DNA of 64,000 bases from Obrimoposthia wandeli (taxonomy: Eukaryota). Below are positions 4,882 through 51,400 of this stretch, one piece after another. The number at the start of each line of letters is the position of its first letter. Positions within the stretch are counted from its first letter, which is position 1. A program made the translations under genes and the position numbers. The notes under the pieces are model-generated. The model was not told the origin of the DNA. It saw only the letters and a program-made list of their open reading frames with translations, and made no database searches. The stretch lies in NCBI GenBank assembly GCA_977020255.1, contig CDROCS010004962.1, positions 62,001 to 126,000 on the forward strand, given 5' to 3'.

Positions 4882-5450
4882 CTATAATATGACAGTTCTG
4901 TTTTTATTGATTTGTATTTCCGAATCAAACACTCCGTAAATAAGCACCGTAGTAGGATGTGTTAAAGCTGCATTGAACTTAATTTCTAGTCATAAATTTC
5001 CATCCTTTCATAGTTGGCATTGGTTTATATCAAAGTCTGGTGCCAAACAAATGTGAAGAACGGGCAGCTACTTTTAAACTCAGTGAAAGAAATACCATTG
5101 TTTATATTTTTATCTAGTTGGCCCAAATTCCGAATAATAGATTGCGTATAAGCCAAAGCATAAACGTTACCTTCCAAATCTGTTTTATATGTTTCGCGAT
5201 AATCAGTATTTCTTGAAAGTGTCACTGAACCTACATTAAGATTGTCAAATTGAGTTGCATCTGTCGTATAATTTCCTAGATACTTTGCAGTTTTTTGAAA
5301 AGAAATTAAAATGAATTTCGGTAATCTTACATCACCAAAAATTTGATCCTTATTAAAAGCTTGTGTATCCGTACCTAAAGAATAGAATATAAGTTTAGTT
5401 TCTCTAATAGGATAACAAGCATTGTTTTTTTCCATTCCTATATTACGATT
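4882..5450 (-). pseudogene. Major capsid protein (PY), C-terminal half, element A
   Basis: NACYPIR..K...SL, IFG..RLPKFILISF, F....VGSVTL, YTQS..RNLG....NNGISF..FK...FFTF, LIYGVFDSEIQI; aligns by eye with the element B MCP. The N-terminal half is missing at the RT junction. Confidence 0.9.
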
Positions 5451-5476
5451 TTAGCGATGTCGATTTAGATGGAAGG

Positions 5477-6784
5477 ATGCATATGTTGGCTACAAAAGGC
5501 TATGCGCCTTTTGCCTCCATTAAAGCCTCCAGGCAAAGGAAGAGAGTCAATGTTAATCAAGATGAGAAGCAACACATCGATGCATGCGTTCAAGCTCTTT
5601 TTCAGGCAGGTATCATTGAGAAATATACTAAAGGCCCCTTTTGCTCTCAAGTAAGAATGGTGCCCAAAGCCAACTCAGAATTACGGCGTCTTATAGTAGA
5701 TTTTAAACATCTAACGCCACATTTGCCTCAGCTGCATATGAAAATTCCGAATTTAGCCAACAGGCTCAAAAGTATCCCAGCTAATAGACTAGCAATTAGA
5801 ATTGACCTCAAGGGAGCTTTTTATCAAGTCAAGATACGTCAAGCTGCAAGACATCTGACAAATTTTTGGAATACCGAATGTTACTACCGTTTTACACGGT
5901 TGCCCATGGGTCTTCGCCAAAGCCCAGCAATCTTGCAATGGGCCATAACCAGAATCCTCGGACAATTGAAGACAAAGTGGCAAGTGGATTTAGCCCAAGT
6001 TCATATTGATGACATCTTGATCATCGCAATGCCCAATGCCAAAGTTTGGAATGAGATAAAGACTTTCTTCGAAGGATGGGGCCTCCAAATTAATTGGAAG
6101 AAGTCACAACTACAGCCAGTATCCAAGATCGAGTATTGCGGCATGTTTATTGACATACAACGCCAGGAGGTGAGTGTCAGTGACACCAAGTGGAACACCG
6201 CCAATGACATCATCGAAAAAGGTCAGTACTCAGATGACGCAATAGGTTTTTTAAATTACATAAGTTGTGTTTTACATTGGCCATATGTGGCAAACTATGT
6301 TAATCCGAGCCTCAGGAAACTATGCTACTACACATTAAAGAAGTATGCCTCTACTTGGAGTTGGAGAAACAAAAGCGGGCTCATCTGGGCCACGGATGTG
6401 ACCAAGACAACTATCGCAGTTACAAAGGCCAAACCGCTGGAAATCGCGCTCACAGCGAAACTAAAAGAAGAAAACATCTATCTTCAAGAGGCCAGAGCGG
6501 TGCTGATGGCTATGTGGAAGGCGAGTCGAGGAGATACAATTCTCTGCGACAATCTAGCCTTGGTTTGGAGCATCAGGAATAGGCGAATACCAGCGCAAGT
6601 GGAGCATTGGTGGACGCTTATCGCGGTGCAACTGCTCGCCGTTATCAAACAAATCACAGTACAATTCATCCGTACTCAGTATAATCCAGCTGACGCTCCA
6701 ACCAGATCTGCAGAGACCCAAGCCAAGAAGGAAGAAGATTGGGGAGTGTTACTATCTCTAACCATGCATCAAGCAATAACATGA
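5477..6784 (+). CDS. Reverse transcriptase-RNase H (DIRS/hepadnavirus-like), intact 435-aa ORF
   Basis: RT: VPK....RRLIVDF..L, IDLKGAFYQV, FTRLPMGLRQSP, VHIDDILI, GLQIN.KKS.L.P...IEYCG..ID. RNase H: WATDVT, LQEARAV, LCDNLA, YNPADAPTR. No gag, protease, integrase or tyrosine recombinase nearby. Confidence 0.92.
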   Translation: MHMLATKGYAPFASIKASRQRKRVNVNQDEKQHIDACVQALFQAGIIEKYTKGPFCSQVRMVPKANSELRRLIVDFKHLTPHLPQLHMKIPNLANRLKSIPANRLAIRIDLKGAFYQVKIRQAARHLTNFWNTECYYRFTRLPMGLRQSPAILQWAITRILGQLKTKWQVDLAQVHIDDILIIAMPNAKVWNEIKTFFEGWGLQINWKKSQLQPVSKIEYCGMFIDIQRQEVSVSDTKWNTANDIIEKGQYSDDAIGFLNYISCVLHWPYVANYVNPSLRKLCYYTLKKYASTWSWRNKSGLIWATDVTKTTIAVTKAKPLEIALTAKLKEENIYLQEARAVLMAMWKASRGDTILCDNLALVWSIRNRRIPAQVEHWWTLIAVQLLAVIKQITVQFIRTQYNPADAPTRSAETQAKKEEDWGVLLSLTMHQAIT

Positions 6785-6874
6785 TCCTTCTGTCCTTTTG
6801 TGTATAAAGTTTTTATGGCTTAAAATTTTTGTGTCTATGTCTCTGTCGCTTACTCAGTCACATCACTTCTAGCC

Positions 6875-7008
6875 TACCACCTTTGGGTTCCAGGCGTGAT
6901 GTGATTGGGTGGCATTTATTATATAAGCTGGCACAAAAATACAATCAGTGCCAGTCTTATATAATAAATGCCACCCAATCACATCACGCCTGGAACCCGA
7001 AGGTGGTA
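6875..7008. repeat. Near-perfect inverted repeat (60-bp stem, 13-nt loop)
   Basis: Arm 6875-6934 is the reverse complement of 6948-7008 apart from one bulged T and one T/G pair; loop AAAAATACAATCA. Confidence 0.97.
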
Positions 7009-7208
7009 TCTAGAAGAGTTTTTCTATATTTCTTTAATATATTTTTCCGTTTTCCAATTTTTACTCGACCCAAAACTATATTATACAAAACTTCCAATAA
7101 ATCGTCTACAACAAAAGATGGAAATGCTTTAAGAATAATCATTCTCTTATGAGAAGAGGCTTTGACTAAAGCTTTAAAATAGGGTATGCTTCTTTGTATT
7201 TTCTTCAT
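6984..7208 (-). pseudogene. Small conserved Polinton-type protein, C-terminus disrupted at the hairpin
   Basis: IL..FP.FVVDDL.EVLYN...G.V.IG.RK..LKKY.K.LL pattern, as I recall from small basic Polinton/adintovirus ORFs; natural C-terminus not reached. Confidence 0.55.
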
Positions 7209-7234
7209 TTTAATAAAAAGGTTTAATTTGAATA

Positions 7235-7243
7235 TTGTTTATA
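7235..7243 (-). promoter_or_regulatory. TATAAACAA motif
   Basis: 26 nt upstream of the ATG at 7208; overlaps the TAA of the upstream small ORF. Confidence 0.65.
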
Positions 7244-7376
7244 TTCGAAGCCATTTAAGTTTTTTTTATTTCTAACTACAGATTTGATTAATATTTTCAC
7301 CTCTTTTTTCTTTATGATTTTTTTTTGATTTCTTAGGCTTTGCTTTAAGTTTTACTATCAACTTCGTAAAAGGCAT
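7239..7376 (-). pseudogene. Short lysine-rich ORF downstream of the ATPase
   Basis: MPFTKLIVKLKAKPKKSKK..., probable frameshift in an A-run, ending W-L-R-I-TAA. Confidence 0.4.
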
Positions 7377-7383
7377 TGTAAAT

Positions 7384-8030
7384 TTATCTTTTATAATTGT
7401 TCTCTATTTGTTTATAAACAGTTACTCCCTTAGAATTAAATATGTCGGTTAAAACACGTAAATCATCTGGGCAAGCTTGTGTAAAGTCAATAAATATATA
7501 CCCATGTGCTTGTTTAGCAGCATCATGGAATGAATCAACTAGAAAGTTCTTATTTTGAGGAAATGCCTGTCTGGCCACGAAATCTACAACTGTTTGATGT
7601 CTAGGATTTTTAAATAAAACTAAGTAATGTACATTAAGATTTCTAGTTCTATGGTGACCTCCTTGGTGAAATAGATTTTGAGTGATAAATATAACTGTTA
7701 TTTCACGATGTCTTGCAATCTTTGTAAATAAATTATTAAAGTCCGATTCCTTGTTAGCCTCCTCATACAAATCATCAATTATTATTACATCTTCTTTTTT
7801 CAATCTTTCACACCAATTTGCATCAAATCCTTCAATAAATTGTATTCCCTTCAACTTGCAAACTTCTGTTTTGGTTAATCCGCTTTCCGCTCCTCCACCA
7901 TGATGCAATAAATATTTTTGAAACTAGATTTGAAAATAGATTCATTTTTCAACAATTTACATACGAAATGTGTCTTTCCACTTCCACTGGGACCAACTAT
8001 TTGAAATACAGCATTATTATTTAGCTCCAT
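7384..8030 (-). pseudogene. A32/FtsK-like packaging ATPase (one frameshift near 7910)
   Basis: Walker A VGPSGSGKT (upstream of the tracked ORF, other frame), Walker B IIIDDL, LFTKIARH..ITVIFITQN, RNLNVHYLVLFKNPR. Confidence 0.93.
7408..7416 (-). promoter_or_regulatory. TATAAACAA motif
   Basis: Inside the ATPase 3' end, 31 nt upstream of the ATG at 7376. Confidence 0.55.
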
Positions 8031-8364: not shown

Positions 8365-8373
8365 TTGTTTATA
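8365..8373 (-). promoter_or_regulatory. TATAAACAA motif
   Basis: Overlaps the stop codon of TBP-like A; 24 nt upstream of the ATG at 8340. Confidence 0.65.
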
Positions 8374-8871
8374 GAAAAGATAACAAGATGTAATAAGATA
8401 TATTTTCTAAAATCAAATCAACAATGTCTGGATAATCAAAATTTTTCAATCCCAATATCATAACTTTACTACTGGAAAATATATTTACACATAGCGGTTT
8501 AAACTTCAAATAACTGAGATCAGGAAAAATTTCTGGTTCAAACATGCATTCTTCTTTCATTTTCTCTGCAGTTTTAAAAAGATTTATCTGTTTCCCGAGA
8601 TTGGCCGAAATTGTGATAGATTCTATTTCAGTGATTCGAATTCCAAATGGTAAATTGAACCCAAGCATTGGTATTTTGCATCCCATAACACGACAATTTC
8701 CTAAAAGAATTCAATATGAAAATAAAATTAAAAAAACTAACCTTTAGGAAAAATAACCACTGTGAAATTGTCAAATATTTCCACATATTGTGTCGGCTTC
8801 CATTCCTTGAATGGTAAGTACGAAACATCATCTTCTGTTCTACCTTTATAATTTATATTTACGAGTTTCAT
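8369..8871 (-). CDS. TATA-binding-protein-like factor, copy A (153 aa after splicing)
   Basis: Exon 1 8871-8742 (MKLVNINYKG...VVIFPKG), 41-nt GT-AG intron 8741-8701, exon 2 8700-8369 (NCRVMGCK...MFEPEIFPDL...CVNIFSSSKVMILG). The total of 462 nt is an intact frame. Matches TBP repeats LIF.SGK...TG and YEPELFPGL...LIFVSGKVVLTG. Confidence 0.85.
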
Positions 8872-12465: not shown

Positions 12466-13413
12466 CATAACCTTTCAGAAATTTAGTGTTAAACTAGTTT
12501 TTGCGTTATGAGCAAAGTTTATCGGTATTCCACTATCATTACGAATATTTACTTCAATATTGGAAATAGATGTTGATATTACAGGAAGATACATATGGTC
12601 TAATGATTGTAATATTTGCGATATCACCATTTTTTTGTTTTTATCTAATCAAATTGTTTTTAACAATGGTATTTTTACACCACCAACATTTATAGACTCT
12701 ATCAAATTGGTATACAGGTACTTGTGATCAAACTCACATATTAATTGTGGAATGCCTTTACCGTCACCTGTAAATTCTGTTTTATTAAGACCCAGTACAA
12801 ATGCCATAAGATTATTAAACAGTATGCTTGAAATATTAGATTTTAACTTGAACTTAATGAATTTATCTTTTTCAATGTAAAACATACTAAAAATATGATT
12901 ACATTTAGATATAACGTATTTAACTAATGCATTCAAATCTGTACTATTGAAAACGTTGTCAAACACGATTTTTGAATTGATATCTTTCTTTCCTAATTGA
13001 TAATATTCGAATTTTGTTGATACATATTTATGATGTATGGTTTTTTGAGCAGTTAAAATACAATTATCATCAGATGCTAAGTAATTTTCATGGTTTAATT
13101 CATTATTTAGGAAACCCAATTGATTTTTCAATTTTTTCGATAGTTTTATATAGAATTTCTGTTTATTTAAAGATTTTAAAACAAGTACATTTTCCTTTTT
13201 ATCTTTGCCATATGTACCAAACTCACAATAAAGATTAGCAATGCGTTTTGATGATTTTATTTCTACTTTTGAAATTTTCTTTATATTAAATTTAACAGGT
13301 TTATGCTTATCATTATGAATTTCCCCATCTTTAAATTCAACATTTAATGAGACAGTATCGGTTTTCTTAGCACTTACCGTTTCCTTATAATTTATTTCAC
13401 TACCCTTGTCCAC
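12461..13413 (-). pseudogene. Minor capsid protein (penton, PX), N-terminus apparently deleted
   Basis: C-terminal signature YLYTNLIESINVGGVKIPLLKT, then PY......I..IEVNIR...G.PI.F......TL.F after a stop. Confidence 0.8.
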
Positions 13414-14197
13414 ATAGTAGAAATACTACTTCAATATGATTATTCAAACATACTACACATTCAGGTTCATTTAACATGTATGAAAGTATATTTAAGTATT
13501 GTTTTTCAGGGTCTTTTTCTAAATTATATAAATCACAAATCATTTCAAATAATGAATTGTATTCTCCATATTGCATCATTTTATATTTTAAAACAGATTT
13601 TATTCTCTCTCTCGTGAAAAACCTTTTCAAGTATCTGATGTTGTTGGTATCCATCAACATGTCGAATTTTTCCGTAGTTAAAGGATATTCACTTATACAA
13701 TCTGATTCGTTTTTCTCAATAACATTAGCATCATTATAGGGTCCTAAACCTTTTGAATAACATATATCAGGTAATTTTACAACAATATCTGATATATATA
13801 CTTTTCCAATCAATGGTGATGTATCAAAATCAATTTTCTTGACCATAGTTTCAATTATTGGTACATTTGAAACATTTAACTTTAAAATAAATGGACATGT
13901 AAGAAAAAATTTCATATGTTGCTTCATTGGTTTAAGATACCATTCCCATTCGGATATTGCACCTTGACAGTATATACATTTTACTTTATCAGTTGAATCA
14001 TCATCATGTTTATAAAATCCAGCTTTAGCTAAATTATATACAGATTGTTTCCCTTTAAAATTTATAATTAACAATCTTAATCTTTCACTTTCACGTCTAT
14101 ATTTCCCGTGTAAAACTTTCATTCTAGAATAATCTACTTTTCGTCTAACTAAAACATCATCAACAGTTTTATAATGAAGTATATAATCAACAAGCAT
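13400..14197 (-). CDS. Inhibitor-of-apoptosis-like protein: one BIR domain plus truncated RING
   Basis: E.ERL...LAKAGFY...VKCIYC...EWE...PM.QH......CPF (CCHC zinc ligands intact); C-terminal ECVVC...VVFLLCGQ stops mid-RING. Likely start is the ATG at 14197. Confidence 0.88.
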   Translation of the reverse strand: MLVDYILHYKTVDDVLVRRKVDYSRMKVLHGKYRRESERLRLLIINFKGKQSVYNLAKAGFYKHDDDSTDKVKCIYCQGAISEWEWYLKPMKQHMKFFLTCPFILKLNVSNVPIIETMVKKIDFDTSPLIGKVYISDIVVKLPDICYSKGLGPYNDANVIEKNESDCISEYPLTTEKFDMLMDTNNIRYLKRFFTRERIKSVLKYKMMQYGEYNSLFEMICDLYNLEKDPEKQYLNILSYMLNEPECVVCLNNHIEVVFLLCGQG

Positions 14198-14222
14198 TTT
14201 TAAAAAATCAAAAAACATATAT

Positions 14223-14231
14223 TTGTTTATA
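14223..14231 (-). promoter_or_regulatory. TATAAACAA motif
   Basis: Overlaps the TBP-like B stop; 25 nt upstream of the ATG at 14197. Confidence 0.65.
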
Positions 14232-14545
14232 AGAAACTATCAAGAAAAAATACAATAGACTCGACTTGACAATGATAATCAAAATCTTTAATACCAAGAA
14301 TAATCACTTTTCCACTAGCAAACACATTAACACAGAGGATTATATTTTAAAATTCTGAGTGCTGGAAACAATTCTGGTTCAAACATACAATTTCTTCCCA
14401 TTTTCATAGATATCTTATACAAATTAACCTTCTTGTTGATATTCACTAGGATACTTAGAGATTGAATACGTTCAATTTCTATATTTTGAGCATCTTTGAT
14501 TGGTTGTTTGCAATCCATAATTCTACATGAACCTAAATAGTAGTA

Positions 14546-48400: not shown

Positions 48401-51400
48401 GTGATTTATCAGACCACATTACTCCCTTCCTAAATATATTTGCCATGTTATAAAATTTTCACAACATTGTAAACAGAGTGCTTTGTGTTGAAAACTGAGC
48501 GGAATTCGTTGAAGTGGTTTGCATTTCTTGTATCCACAACATAGGACTCTTCTATAAGCTGTTCGTATTGAGTAAGGAAGTTGTTTACCTGGGTAATTGC
48601 TCCTTAACAATCGTCGAATGGATCCAAAACGAATTTTTCTTCTCATACATCATCAATATTCTGTTGTATCGCTCTGTTTCTTTATGTGGTCTACCGCTTT
48701 CAGGTTTTCTGTTGACATTGCCCCTCTGTTGATATTCTATCCCCCATTTTCAAACTGTATTTTGATCACATTCTATTTTTCCTGGACACCATCTTGATTG
48801 ACAATTCTGCTTCTAACATCCCAATTATTCTTCCCTTGTCAAATTCACTTAAAATCATGATGACTTGTACACTAAAAGTGAAAAAAAATCATAAGAAATT
48901 ACTAAAAGTTTACATCAATACATAAAAATTATAATAAGTAGAAAAATGATTGATAAACGACACCAGAGTATACAGTACATTGTGTTTTAAAGTGGGTGAC
49001 TTTTTTTGGCGGTGAGTATATAATAAAAAAACATATTTTGTAAATAAATAATTAGAACATATTTTATAAATAAAATATAAGTAATTTTACTTTTAAAACA
49101 GATAAAAATGCTCATAAAATCCACTCCAACTGCTGAACCCATTTGGATAATACTCTAAATTCTAGTATACATATATATTAATTATTTACGATGTTTTCAA
49201 TGTTTTCAATAACTTCATAAAATGTCTGTCGAAATTGAGCATTACTCAAAAACTACCACATTACATAATAGTAGATTATCTTAATTATGTTAGTTATGAA
49301 TTACTTGGTTTATTTCATTTTGATTCTTTATAATCAGTATTTCAGTATTCAAAGAAATATCAAAATTAGCAACAAAAAACGTATTTTTATGTTGAAGATT
49401 TTCAAGTCATTCATAAAAGAAATATGATTTTTTTTAAATCAAAAAATTGTGGAAGACAATTATAAAAATAATACAAATCTATCAATATAATTCAGTATCC
49501 AAATACCGTTTATTTAATTTGCTATATCCAAATTTTCGATATTGTATTTCCTCTCCTAATACCGAGATACTTGTAATATTTGTATTGTATCGTGAAACAT
49601 ATCACTTTCAAATATAAAAAATATATTTAATAATTTTACTCAGCATATATAACATAAGACTTACTCGATAGTATCTTCTGATTTGTGCTTATCTGGCAGA
49701 TCACGACTCCGTTCAGCCAGGTCGTCCTTAAGTTTCCCCAGCAATTCTGTACACTGGATCTGCTCCAGAAGAGACTCTTGTTCCCGAATTTTCTGTTGCT
49801 GCTTCTCGATCAACTCCTGTTGTGCTGCATGCCGACTCGCATACGTGTTGACGGGCTGAATAAACAACGAAATCATCAATATGTGTCCATTACAATCTTT
49901 AGCATTTTTTTATAGTACACTGTGTTTTTTGTAAATGTTGCTGATAGCAGGGAGGAATTTGGCCATTTTAAAAAGTGATAAAATCGTGACAAGTTTTATA
50001 AAATATCAATTAATTTTTAATAGAAATGAATAGTAAACAATTAACATTAAAATAAAATCGATTCTTTAATTGTGAACTATTTTTTATCGAATGTAGGACA
50101 TTTCGGACACACGTTTTGGACTGGACGTTTCAGACTGACTTTTTTTAAAAGTAGTACGTTTCGGACACTCCAAATTTTTGGTAGAAATTGATATTTTTTC
50201 TAATAGTTTTTTGTTGAGTCAATTTATAAAAAATTATTAGTTTTCAGTTTGATAGAAAATGGTGTTCTTTCTATAGGTTATTTTGGGTCAATTTATAAGA
50301 AATAGTTAGTTTTCAGAAAATATTACTTTTCTTTTTTATAAGAAATAAGAAATACTTTTATTTAAAAGAAAAATCATAAAATATCAAAGTTCAATTGCTT
50401 ATTTATTAACAACATTTACAGCAATTCAATCAAACAAACTTATCCAAAAACTAACTATTTCTTCAAAATTTAACAAAATAAAATTATTAGAAAAAACACC
50501 ATTTTCTACCAAAAAATCTGGAAAGTCCGATAGGTCCTACTTTTAAAAAATACCATTTCGAAACGTCCGTGCACCATTTTTTCATTTGAGATATTTCTAA
50601 ATTTTCATTGTTTGTTAGATTTGAATAGTCAAATACTTGATTATTTTTTAAATTTTTTAGAAGTAAAAAGGGTAAACCTCTGTTTCATAAACTTATCAGT
50701 ATTTATAGAATTAATGAACAACGAATTGACAATTCTGTCACATCGTTTTCCATATAGAAACAAAGAAACGGAAATACACAGATACATATATAGCATTGGG
50801 TTTCACAGGCATTACCGTTAGTGATGTGGAAAGTTGGTGAAAACTAAGCAGACCCAACCATCTCACTAAAAATTTAACATGTACAAAAATATATTTTGAT
50901 TTTGTATAATAAACATTTTTCGAGGAATCCTTTATATCAATGGAAGCCATAAAATTGTGATTGTAGGGTAAATATTTTAAATTTTATAATAAATAAGAGA
51001 GGAAATTAATATATGAATATCACAAAAGAGTAAAAGGTATGTTTATGTCAATCGTCTGAGGACCACAGAGGATCATAGCCGGTCGAAATTAAAATGACCA
51101 TTTTAGTGACGGAACAAGACAATTTCTTTGTTAAAAAAAACAATAGTAATAAAATACGAGGGTTGATAAAACCTTCCGTCCATCATGTAAAGTAAAAACT
51201 AACATACCTTGGGATGCTTGAGAGATTTAATATCTTCTGCTGAAGGTCGAGTTGGAGGATGACCGAGCAGTTTCTCTATTGGCATATACACATGCTGCTT
51301 GGATACCTAAAAGGAAACAGTATAAATAAGTTTAAACTGCCTTGCATATAAGGGTAATTCCATTTCAGAGCTAAATAATTTAATATTTTCCAAGTATAAT

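What the first reader, a model, noticed from the sequence alone, without database searches (positions are those of the whole stretch)
5450..6870. Intact stand-alone RT-RNase H with mixed DIRS/hepadnavirus-like signatures embedded in the virion-gene block
Seen: a 435-aa uninterrupted ORF amid frameshifted neighbours. It replaces the MCP N-terminus and the core/penton region expected from element B, with no gag, integrase, tyrosine recombinase, LTR or TSD. The thumb and RNase H resemble DIRS (G..IN..KS.L.P, DN.A, N.AD..R). LPMG..SP and NPADAPTR recall hepadnaviral motifs (IPMG..SP, NPADDPSR), and the catalytic motif is an unusual HIDD. A TATAAA about 20 nt after the stop could be a poly(A) signal. 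Inference: a truncated DIRS, a hepadna-related retroelement, or an RT travelling with a Polinton as cargo.
Basis: partly seen in the sequence, partly recalled or inferred. Interest (0 to 1): 0.7.

Follow-up and report, generated by a model that had tools for sequence, protein, structure and literature searches.

The report
Integrase-free, hepadnavirus-like genomic retroelement
This reverse transcriptase gene is a broken-off piece of a 2.7-kb mobile element, present in many copies in this genome, that has no integration enzyme and seems to copy itself the way hepatitis B virus does, so it may show what the ancestors of hepatitis B-type viruses looked like.

Summary
The ORF is real but not stand-alone. 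It is a 5'-truncated copy (window 5446-7016) of a multicopy 2.73-kb element: ~30-nt terminal repeat R, ORF1 (255-260 aa), overlapping RT-RNase H ORF2 (~740 codons), 3' stem-loop, TATA box, R. A 32-mer occurs 299 times; dN/dS is about 0.04. No integrase, tyrosine recombinase, LTR or poly(A) was seen, and one flank duplication in 76 copies. The window copy replaced 2,245 bp of a Polinton with microhomology and a fold-back end, but flanks are no richer in Polinton than background (25/143 vs 26/119), so it is not cargo. RT-RNase H groups with HEART-like proteins (98/95) and is rejected from the DIRS-like clade (AU p=0.002); the anchors are unnamed. Right ends stop at GATAAT (28/62), and the same hexamer sits unpaired in a covarying 5' stem-bulge-stem holding ORF1's start. 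Best reading, inferred: hepadnavirus-style primer synthesis and transfer, capture of linear cDNA at chromosome breaks, and partial tandems as new templates. Terminal protein and core homology were not found; expression is untested.

The parts
5446..6960 (+). 5'-truncated body of the element (positions ~1218-2732 of a 2,724-nt unit, running a few bases into R); lacks ORF1 and the 5' signals
   Evidence: 95% identical to nearest copies, which continue upstream
5411..6784 (+). open frame holding the C-terminal 445 codons of ORF2 (RT + RNase H); 5411-5445 is Polinton-derived; first ATG 5477
   Evidence: dN/dS 0.036-0.047 against two other copies
5642..6145 (+). RT domain (IDLKGAF, LPMGLRQSP, HIDD)
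   Evidence: Pfam RVT_1 E 3e-18; AF2 model of a homologous copy pLDDT mostly >90 here
6362..6712 (+). RNase H with acidic residues in WATD, QEAR, CDN, NPAD
   Evidence: PF00336 E 4e-4, below cut-off; collinear with HEART-like P0023
6848..6914 (+). nearly invariant 3' stem-bulge-stem-loop (role unknown: RNP signal or promoter-proximal element)
   Evidence: no covariation because it barely varies; also in the ~50%-identity subfamily
6920..6927 (+). TATA box at the element's 3' end, about 32 nt before R
   Evidence: invariant in 10 of 10 unit-length copies; promoter role inferred
6952..6960 (+). start of terminal repeat R (initiator-like CAGT), cut short in this copy
   Evidence: full-length copies begin at this motif
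6956..7016 (-). fold-back arm, an inverted copy of 6868-6927, ending in microhomology with the target
   Evidence: similar fold-backs in L104, L148, L155 and others
5025..5445 (-). left flank: C-terminal remnant of the Polinton MCP-like gene (host of the insertion, not part of the element)
   Evidence: the MCP label is by position and recall, no Pfam hit
7017..7923 (-). right flank: Polinton sequence up to the A32-like ATPase

Best explanation
SHOWN: the window holds a truncated, repair-captured copy of an autonomous, recently active 2.73-kb two-ORF retroelement, R-ORF1-ORF2(RT-RH)-stem-loop-TATA-R, with no integrase, recombinase or endonuclease. INFERRED mechanism: the TATA box drives a slightly over-unit-length RNA from R to beyond the next R, from a circle or partial tandem. 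ORF2 binds a 5' stem-bulge-stem (epsilon-like, about +78 to +140) and makes a short primer on the unpaired GAUAAU, probably protein-linked through a small conserved Tyr-bearing domain before the RT. The primer moves to the matching GATAA(T) at the end of the 3' R and the minus strand is extended to the RNA 5' end. This gives linear DNA R...U3-R, like hepadnaviral double-stranded linear DNA. Host end-joining captures it at chromosome breaks, giving target deletions, microhomology, truncations and fold-backs. A second template switch at R gives over-length copies whose upstream promoter makes them new templates, as in Penelope partial tandems. ORF1 is probably an RNA-packaging protein.
For: Unit 2,723-2,744 nt in 10 copies with both repeats. 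Same layout in a ~50%-identity subfamily (1 copy read). 3' ends within R+8..+35 in 56 of 76 copies; 5' ends at R start in 12, upstream in 11, truncated in 53; no poly(A). No flank duplication above background in 75 of 76. 28 of 62 right ends include GATAAT. GATAAT is unpaired in the 5' stem-loop in 21 of 22 copies; 99.6% of cells pair, 2 pairs change on both sides, slid controls 36-52%. In the subfamily whose R reads GATAAA (4 of 4 continuous repeats), 3 of 3 chromosomal ends that reach this far read GATAAT, as the bulge does (chance about 0.03 by my arithmetic). Two DNAs stop exactly at the bulge hexamer and join an inverted R end (L024, L128), and L030 looks alike. Over-length copies have 94-100% identical terminal redundancies of 90-1,079 nt in 7 of the 12 checked, a weaker 85% one in L101, and L114 is a multimer. 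Tree: 24-row clade with HEART-like rows 98/95. The HBV P model superposes at 4.5 A over 392 columns, non-hepadnaviral named targets over 390 or more columns at 9 A or more. Hepadnaviral priming, transfer and integration as described in PMC5541001 and PMC5408681 (passages).
Against: No terminal-protein profile hit (PF00242 absent at E<=1) and no DR2-like repeat conserved across copies. ORF1 has no core or gag homolog. Caulimoviral RTs outrank HBV by Foldseek E-value. The AU test also rejects a sister position to the tick-HEART-like rows (p=0.025). No hepadnaviral, nackednaviral, Ngaro or VIPER sequence was in the tree. 24 of 62 right ends stop short of the hexamer or are otherwise altered. Covariation rests on two pairs and related copies share changes. 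The terminal-T signal is n=3. Frequent 5' truncation is also typical of target-primed elements. No RNA or extrachromosomal DNA evidence.
Confidence: 0.5

Rival explanations
1. Same element, but primed at the chromosome. A broken DNA end anneals to the 3' R and primes reverse transcription in place (endonuclease-free target priming, Penelope/LINE-like); the 3' stem-loop is the RT binding site and the 5' stem-loop only regulates translation.
For: Fixed 3' end with variable 5' truncation, partial tandems, inverted pieces and a ~30-nt tail match the layout described for Penelope-like elements (PMC8557442 passages). The 3' stem-loop is nearly invariant.
Against: It does not explain the same hexamer in the 5' bulge and at right ends, the extra T in 3 of 3 ends, or DNAs ending at the bulge. 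No poly(A), no TSD. The RT is of the LTR/hepadna type with RNase H, not Penelope-like.
Confidence: 0.2
2. A small non-enveloped reverse-transcribing virus (nackedna/proto-nackedna grade) that infects this animal and is repeatedly endogenised as dead-end linear DNA; ORF1 is a divergent core protein.
For: Size (2.73 kb against 2,766-3,105 bp for nackednaviruses, PMC5604429 section 8). Overlapping basic-tailed ORF1 then P-like ORF2. Several synonymously saturated yet intact lineages coexist. Eight of 10 close database relatives lie on 1.8-3.8-kb contigs.
Against: At least 299 motif copies and long tandem arrays suggest amplification inside the germline. No TP, core or DR2 was found. No close relative in IMG/VR in 4 scans.
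Confidence: 0.17
3. A recombinase-less derivative of a DIRS-order element (Ngaro or VIPER-like), mobilised by repair or by a recombinase in trans.
For: Gag-position ORF1 overlapping RT-RH is DIRS-like. VIPER RNase H also groups with hepadnaviruses (PMC6681497 passages), and the top Atlas hits are unnamed euglenozoan clusters (0.93, 0.92). No named Ngaro or VIPER anchor was tested.
Against: No third ORF in 10 unit-length copies or in the divergent copy. No B2 repeat or ITR, and junctions are imprecise. None of the 104 PF00589 matches is beside a listed copy (compared by eye). AU p=0.0024 against the DIRS-like clade.
Confidence: 0.1
4. An RT carried as cargo by, or targeted to, Polintons.
For: 21 of 73 copies have a Polinton-like flank; a second copy (L019) sits in the same MCP-like gene at another position.
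Against: Background is as high: 25/143 against 26/119 windows, p=0.43. An empty site exists and the insertion destroyed the Polinton's integrase and capsid genes.
Confidence: 0.02

Closest known systems
HEART retroelements (Gong and Han 2018; original paper not held, known here from PMC12691608, PMC11551314, PMC12440569)
   Same: Endogenous invertebrate RT related to Blubervirales; RT-RH collinear over 443 columns with P0023 (E 1e-34), which matches the published Ixodes HEART RT by eye; same 98/95 clade
   Different: Not sister to the tick HEART-like rows (AU p=0.025); HIDD rather than (Y/H)(I/L)DN; complete ends, ORF1 and cis signals are defined here, whereas HEART mobilisation is called unresolved (PMC12440569). 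The structure given in the 2018 paper could not be compared.
Nackednaviruses, proto-nackednaviruses and hepadnaviruses (Blubervirales)
   Same: About 2.7 kb; ORF1 overlapping a P-like ORF; TATA then short terminal redundancy (~33 nt in RTPV, PMC12691608); epsilon-like 5' stem-bulge-stem with a bulge matching a 3' acceptor; integrase-free insertions with promoter separated from ORFs; compact RT-RH fold
   Different: No TP or core homology detected, no DR2, HIDD instead of YMDD, hundreds of germline copies with tandems
DIRS order (DIRS, PAT, Ngaro, VIPER, TATE)
   Same: Gag-position ORF1 overlapping RT-RH; similar thumb and RNase H motifs; Ngaro also inserts into virophage DNA (PMC8547959)
   Different: No tyrosine recombinase, no ITR/ICR or A1-B1A2B2 repeats, no methyltransferase tail, imprecise junctions, no Polinton preference
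Penelope-like elements
   Same: 5' truncation, partial tandems, inverted pieces, ~30-nt tail (PMC8557442)
   Different: Unrelated RT with RNase H, two ORFs, no GIY-YIG, no Rfam ribozyme hit, not confined to chromosome ends as far as the flanks show

Membership tests
DIRS order | tyrosine recombinase ORF | tested here: not met
   no further shared ORF in 10 unit-length copies or L204; PF00589 hits elsewhere
DIRS order | ITR+ICR or split direct repeats A1-B1A2B2 | tested here: not met
   only a ~30-nt R; 56 of 76 copies end within R
DIRS order | RT groups with DIRS/PAT | tested here: not met
   AU p=0.0024; anchors unnamed, chosen by long post-RH tails and one weak Dam hit
DIRS order | RT groups with Ngaro or VIPER/TATE | not tested
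   no named anchors available from the tools
HEART | RT in the HEART-containing lineage outside DIRS and Ortervirales | tested here: met
   24-row clade 98/95; HEART anchors identified by eye only
HEART | sister to described tick HEART | tested here: not met
   AU p=0.025; insect HEART1/2 not available
HEART | element structure as in the original description | not testable with these tools
   paper not held
Blubervirales | terminal protein domain | tested here: inconclusive
   no PF00242 hit; pre-RT region has low pLDDT; invariant Tyr-bearing block present
Blubervirales | HBV-type core protein | tested here: inconclusive
   ORF1 model pLDDT 54, only generic helical matches; Arg/Gly-rich tail
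Blubervirales | epsilon stem-bulge-stem with bulge matching a 3' acceptor | tested here: met
   by sequence, folding and end mapping; function not assayed
Blubervirales | DR1 and DR2 | tested here: not met
   no conserved repeat of the first 45 nt near the 3' end other than R
Blubervirales | circular episomal genome and particles | not testable with these tools
   only assembled contigs of one sample were available
LTR retrotransposons / Ortervirales | LTRs, integrase, protease, short TSD | tested here: not met
Penelope-like elements | TERT-related RT without RNase H | tested here: not met
   RT-RH of LTR/hepadna type

The most novel reading that the evidence does not exclude
This is a still-active genomic retroelement that already uses epsilon-templated protein priming and primer transfer but has neither a recognisable TP/core nor any integration enzyme: a living model of the retroelement stage before Blubervirales, and one member of a large unnamed radiation of short RT-RNase H elements that includes HEART.
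Probability: 0.4. Interest if true: 0.92.

Novelty: new variant of a known kind. Interest (0 to 1): 0.8.

Why it matters
HEART elements are proposed ancestors of hepadnaviruses (PMC12691608), yet their mobilisation is described as unresolved and the sequences as few and decayed (PMC12440569). Here a related lineage has hundreds of copies, many intact, with mappable ends and cis signals. That makes a long-standing question directly testable: did epsilon-directed protein priming arise in a transposon before capsids and the TP domain? It would also be a eukaryotic retroelement that spreads with no integrase, recombinase or endonuclease of its own.

Tried and rejected
Poly(A) signal at 6803: conserved in 3 of 40 copies, rejected. 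Polinton targeting: no enrichment; the background is only 17 regions of 3 kb, and the library covers Polintons related to the window's. TSDs: background level except L042. Rfam on two loci: only sub-threshold miRNA hits. ORF1 homolog search: none among 8,000 scored candidates; Atlas 0.77-0.79, leads only; fold searches generic. ORF1 homodimer prediction: no verdict. Related loci: metagenome scan gave 16 distant loci (25-34% identity), most with long pol-like ORFs and none close; 4 viral scans gave 1 distant locus. Sequencing runs: no RNA holder listed; four contig sets of one sample added nothing on circles or expression. Stop-free +1 frame over ORF1: per-copy probability 0.016-0.165, and that stretch is not conserved in amino acids, so ORF2's true start (leaky scanning or frameshift) is open. 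Earlier findings: three look-ups, nothing. Literature: 10 searches found no description of this structure; Repbase, the 2018 HEART paper and the 2021 nackednavirus epsilon paper were not available. Kuafuorterviruses and Troyka have LTRs and were set aside.

Full report
Observation. The frame 5411-6784 is open for 457 codons, 435 from the first ATG at 5477. It has an RT domain (RVT_1, E 3e-18) and a weak, sub-threshold match to the hepadnaviral RNase H family PF00336. The quoted motifs are present. A 53-bp, 98% perfect inverted repeat follows at 6875-7008. The TATAAA at 6803 occurs in 3 of 40 copies.

It is a truncated copy. A DNA search of the own genome (40 of 3,219 candidates scored) gave about 40 loci at 74-95% identity. 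A protein search gave 93 of 93 scored matches at 71% or more, an ORF1 search 147 matches including a subfamily near 50%, and an exact 32-mer 299 matches against 0 for the control. Other copies continue upstream in frame. I fetched 80 loci, chosen by RT similarity and partly for long ORFs, so counts below are biased to long copies; 28 hold an ORF of 700 codons or more. Five apparent segmental duplicates (L033, L126, L146, L154, L157) were dropped from the end and flank counts.

Anatomy. Ten copies with both termini give a unit of 2,723-2,744 nt: R (about 30 nt, starting CAGTCTTA), a 5' leader, ORF1, overlapping ORF2 in the +1 frame, a 3' stem-loop, TATATAAG, and R again about 32 nt later. ORF1 is 255-260 aa in 10 intact copies and starts at one position with ATG (1), GTG (7) or TTG (2). 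It shows codon-position constraint and ends in an Arg/Gly-rich tail; it has no detectable homolog and only generic helical fold matches at pLDDT 54. ORF2 has dN/dS 0.036-0.047 where dS is measurable, and dS is saturated in 12 of 15 pairs. Its part overlapping ORF1 drifts, but a nearly invariant block of about 50 aa with conserved tyrosines precedes the RT. No third shared ORF exists. One copy of the divergent subfamily has the same layout and no recombinase.

Ends and insertion. Of 76 copies, 56 end within R+8..+35, 13 earlier and 7 later; 12 start at R, 11 upstream of it and 53 are 5'-truncated; none of the single-piece ends has poly(A). Fourteen are in several pieces: tandems, inversions, fold-backs. 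Flank duplications match background (3-8 nt against 3-11 nt) in 75 of 76 testable loci; L042 has 182 nt. Over-length copies carry mostly 94-100% identical upstream copies of their own 3' region, which restores a promoter. The window copy replaced 2,245 bp relative to one empty Polinton site read in full, with a 7-nt microhomology on the right; the loss includes an rve integrase and a chromodomain. Polinton-like hits occur in 25 of 143 flank windows and 26 of 119 background windows from 17 regions (p=0.43). The Polinton setting is therefore incidental.

Relationships. The best database relative is 40% identical (P0002). The HMMER search returned many 400-725-aa RT-RH proteins that end just after NPAD..R, often with H-x-DD. 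Four of them (P0023, P0024, P0034, P0049) match by eye the Ixodes HEART RT rows in the supplement of PMC12691608. In the careful RT-RH tree (45 rows, 392 columns; four intended rows were skipped by the motif filter) the query and these rows share a 24-row clade (98/95), apart from a DIRS-like clade (100/99) and Ortervirales (100/100). On 32 rows (13 dropped for time) AU tests reject placement with the DIRS-like rows (p=0.0024) and as sister to the HEART-like rows (p=0.025). All anchors are unnamed, the root is a midpoint, branches are long, and no hepadnavirus, Ngaro or VIPER is included. The ORF2 model (pLDDT 82) ranks caulimoviral RTs first by E-value but superposes RT and RH together best on HBV P (4.5 A over 392 columns). 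Atlas ranks unnamed euglenozoan clusters first and hepadnaviral P (0.91) above retroviral Pol (0.89); VIPER RNase H is also hepadna-like (PMC6681497), so this signal is not exclusive.

Priming signature. Of 62 right ends, 28 include GATAAT, 4 GATAA, 6 part of it and 24 are shorter or altered. The same hexamer lies about 93 nt from the 5' end, unpaired in a stem-bulge-stem whose upper stem holds ORF1's start codon: 21 of 22 copies keep it, 99.6% of cells pair, two pairs change on both sides, and slid controls give 36-52% (related copies share changes). In the subfamily whose R reads GATAAA in 4 of 4 continuous repeats, 3 of 3 chromosomal ends reaching that point read GATAAT. Of four run-on ends flagged near the bulge, two (L024, L128) stop exactly at it, one stops 13 nt later and one is a deletion. 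In hepadnaviruses a 3-4-nt protein-linked primer is copied from the epsilon bulge and moved to a matching acceptor at DR1* (PMC5541001), and linear DNA only about 16 nt over genome length integrates at breaks with its promoter separated from core and pol (PMC5408681). The element fits this pattern. Protein priming itself, the RNA ends, circles and the role of ORF1 are inferred, not shown. No TP profile or DR2 was found.

Comparison and novelty. It works like hepadnaviral linear-DNA production with Penelope-like partial tandems (PMC8557442). It fails membership of DIRS, LTR and Penelope groups, is not shown to be a Blubervirales virus, and is best filed as a new variant of the HEART-related kind. 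Ten literature searches (listed under Tried and rejected) found no description of this structure; the 2018 HEART paper and Repbase, which I could not see, may bear on that. Papers seen: PMC12691608 (text parts 1-2 of 3, search passages across its supplements, file 6 parts 4-5); PMC12440569 (part 1 of 5 and passages); PMC11673190 (part 1 of 3); PMC5604429 (abstract, section 8); PMC7192593 (abstract); passages of PMC11551314, PMC5408681, PMC5541001, PMC6681497, PMC8547959, PMC8557442 and bioRxiv 10.1101/829473. The labels MCP, penton, initiator and Polinton rest on position and recall plus the Pfam hits. The host species was not determined.

Verdict. Interest 0.8.

Noticed in passing
G000, many contigs (L198-L203): 104 PF00589 matches, the best being intact ~300-aa XerC/D-like ORFs; probably bacterial symbiont or contaminant contigs in the assembly.
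   Followed up: no
window 8369-8710 and 13400-14236: The Polinton-like region carries a TBP-like ORF (E 7e-9) and a BIR+RING inhibitor-of-apoptosis ORF (E 1e-11).
   Followed up: no
L180-L196 background regions: Polinton-like sequence hits 26 of 119 windows of 400 bp, so Polintons make up a very large share of this genome sample.
   Followed up: partly
G000:C1010:71128-81311; L160; G000:C4177: Tandem arrays of partial units: at least nine 1.27-kb repeats on C1010, ~2-kb 5'-truncated units joined through A-runs in L160, and ORF1 hits about 6 kb apart on C4177.
   Followed up: partly
L042 junctions: One copy is flanked by a 182-nt duplication, unlike all others tested.
   Followed up: no
first ~70 nt of full-length copies (L031, L036, L103, L109, L112): A further long hairpin at the very 5' end, variable in sequence but folding in each copy examined.
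   Followed up: partly
P0002-P0152: A large set of unnamed short RT-RNase H proteins with H-x-DD and terminal NPAD..R; 8 of 10 looked up lie on 1.8-3.8-kb contigs, and one is labelled as from a bacterial MAG on a 2.2-kb contig, likely misbinned.
   Followed up: partly
L039 right end: This copy ends in a long GTGTG-type repeat instead of the normal terminus.
   Followed up: no
window 50123-50568: Nested imperfect inverted repeats of about 450 bp, MITE-like.
   Followed up: no
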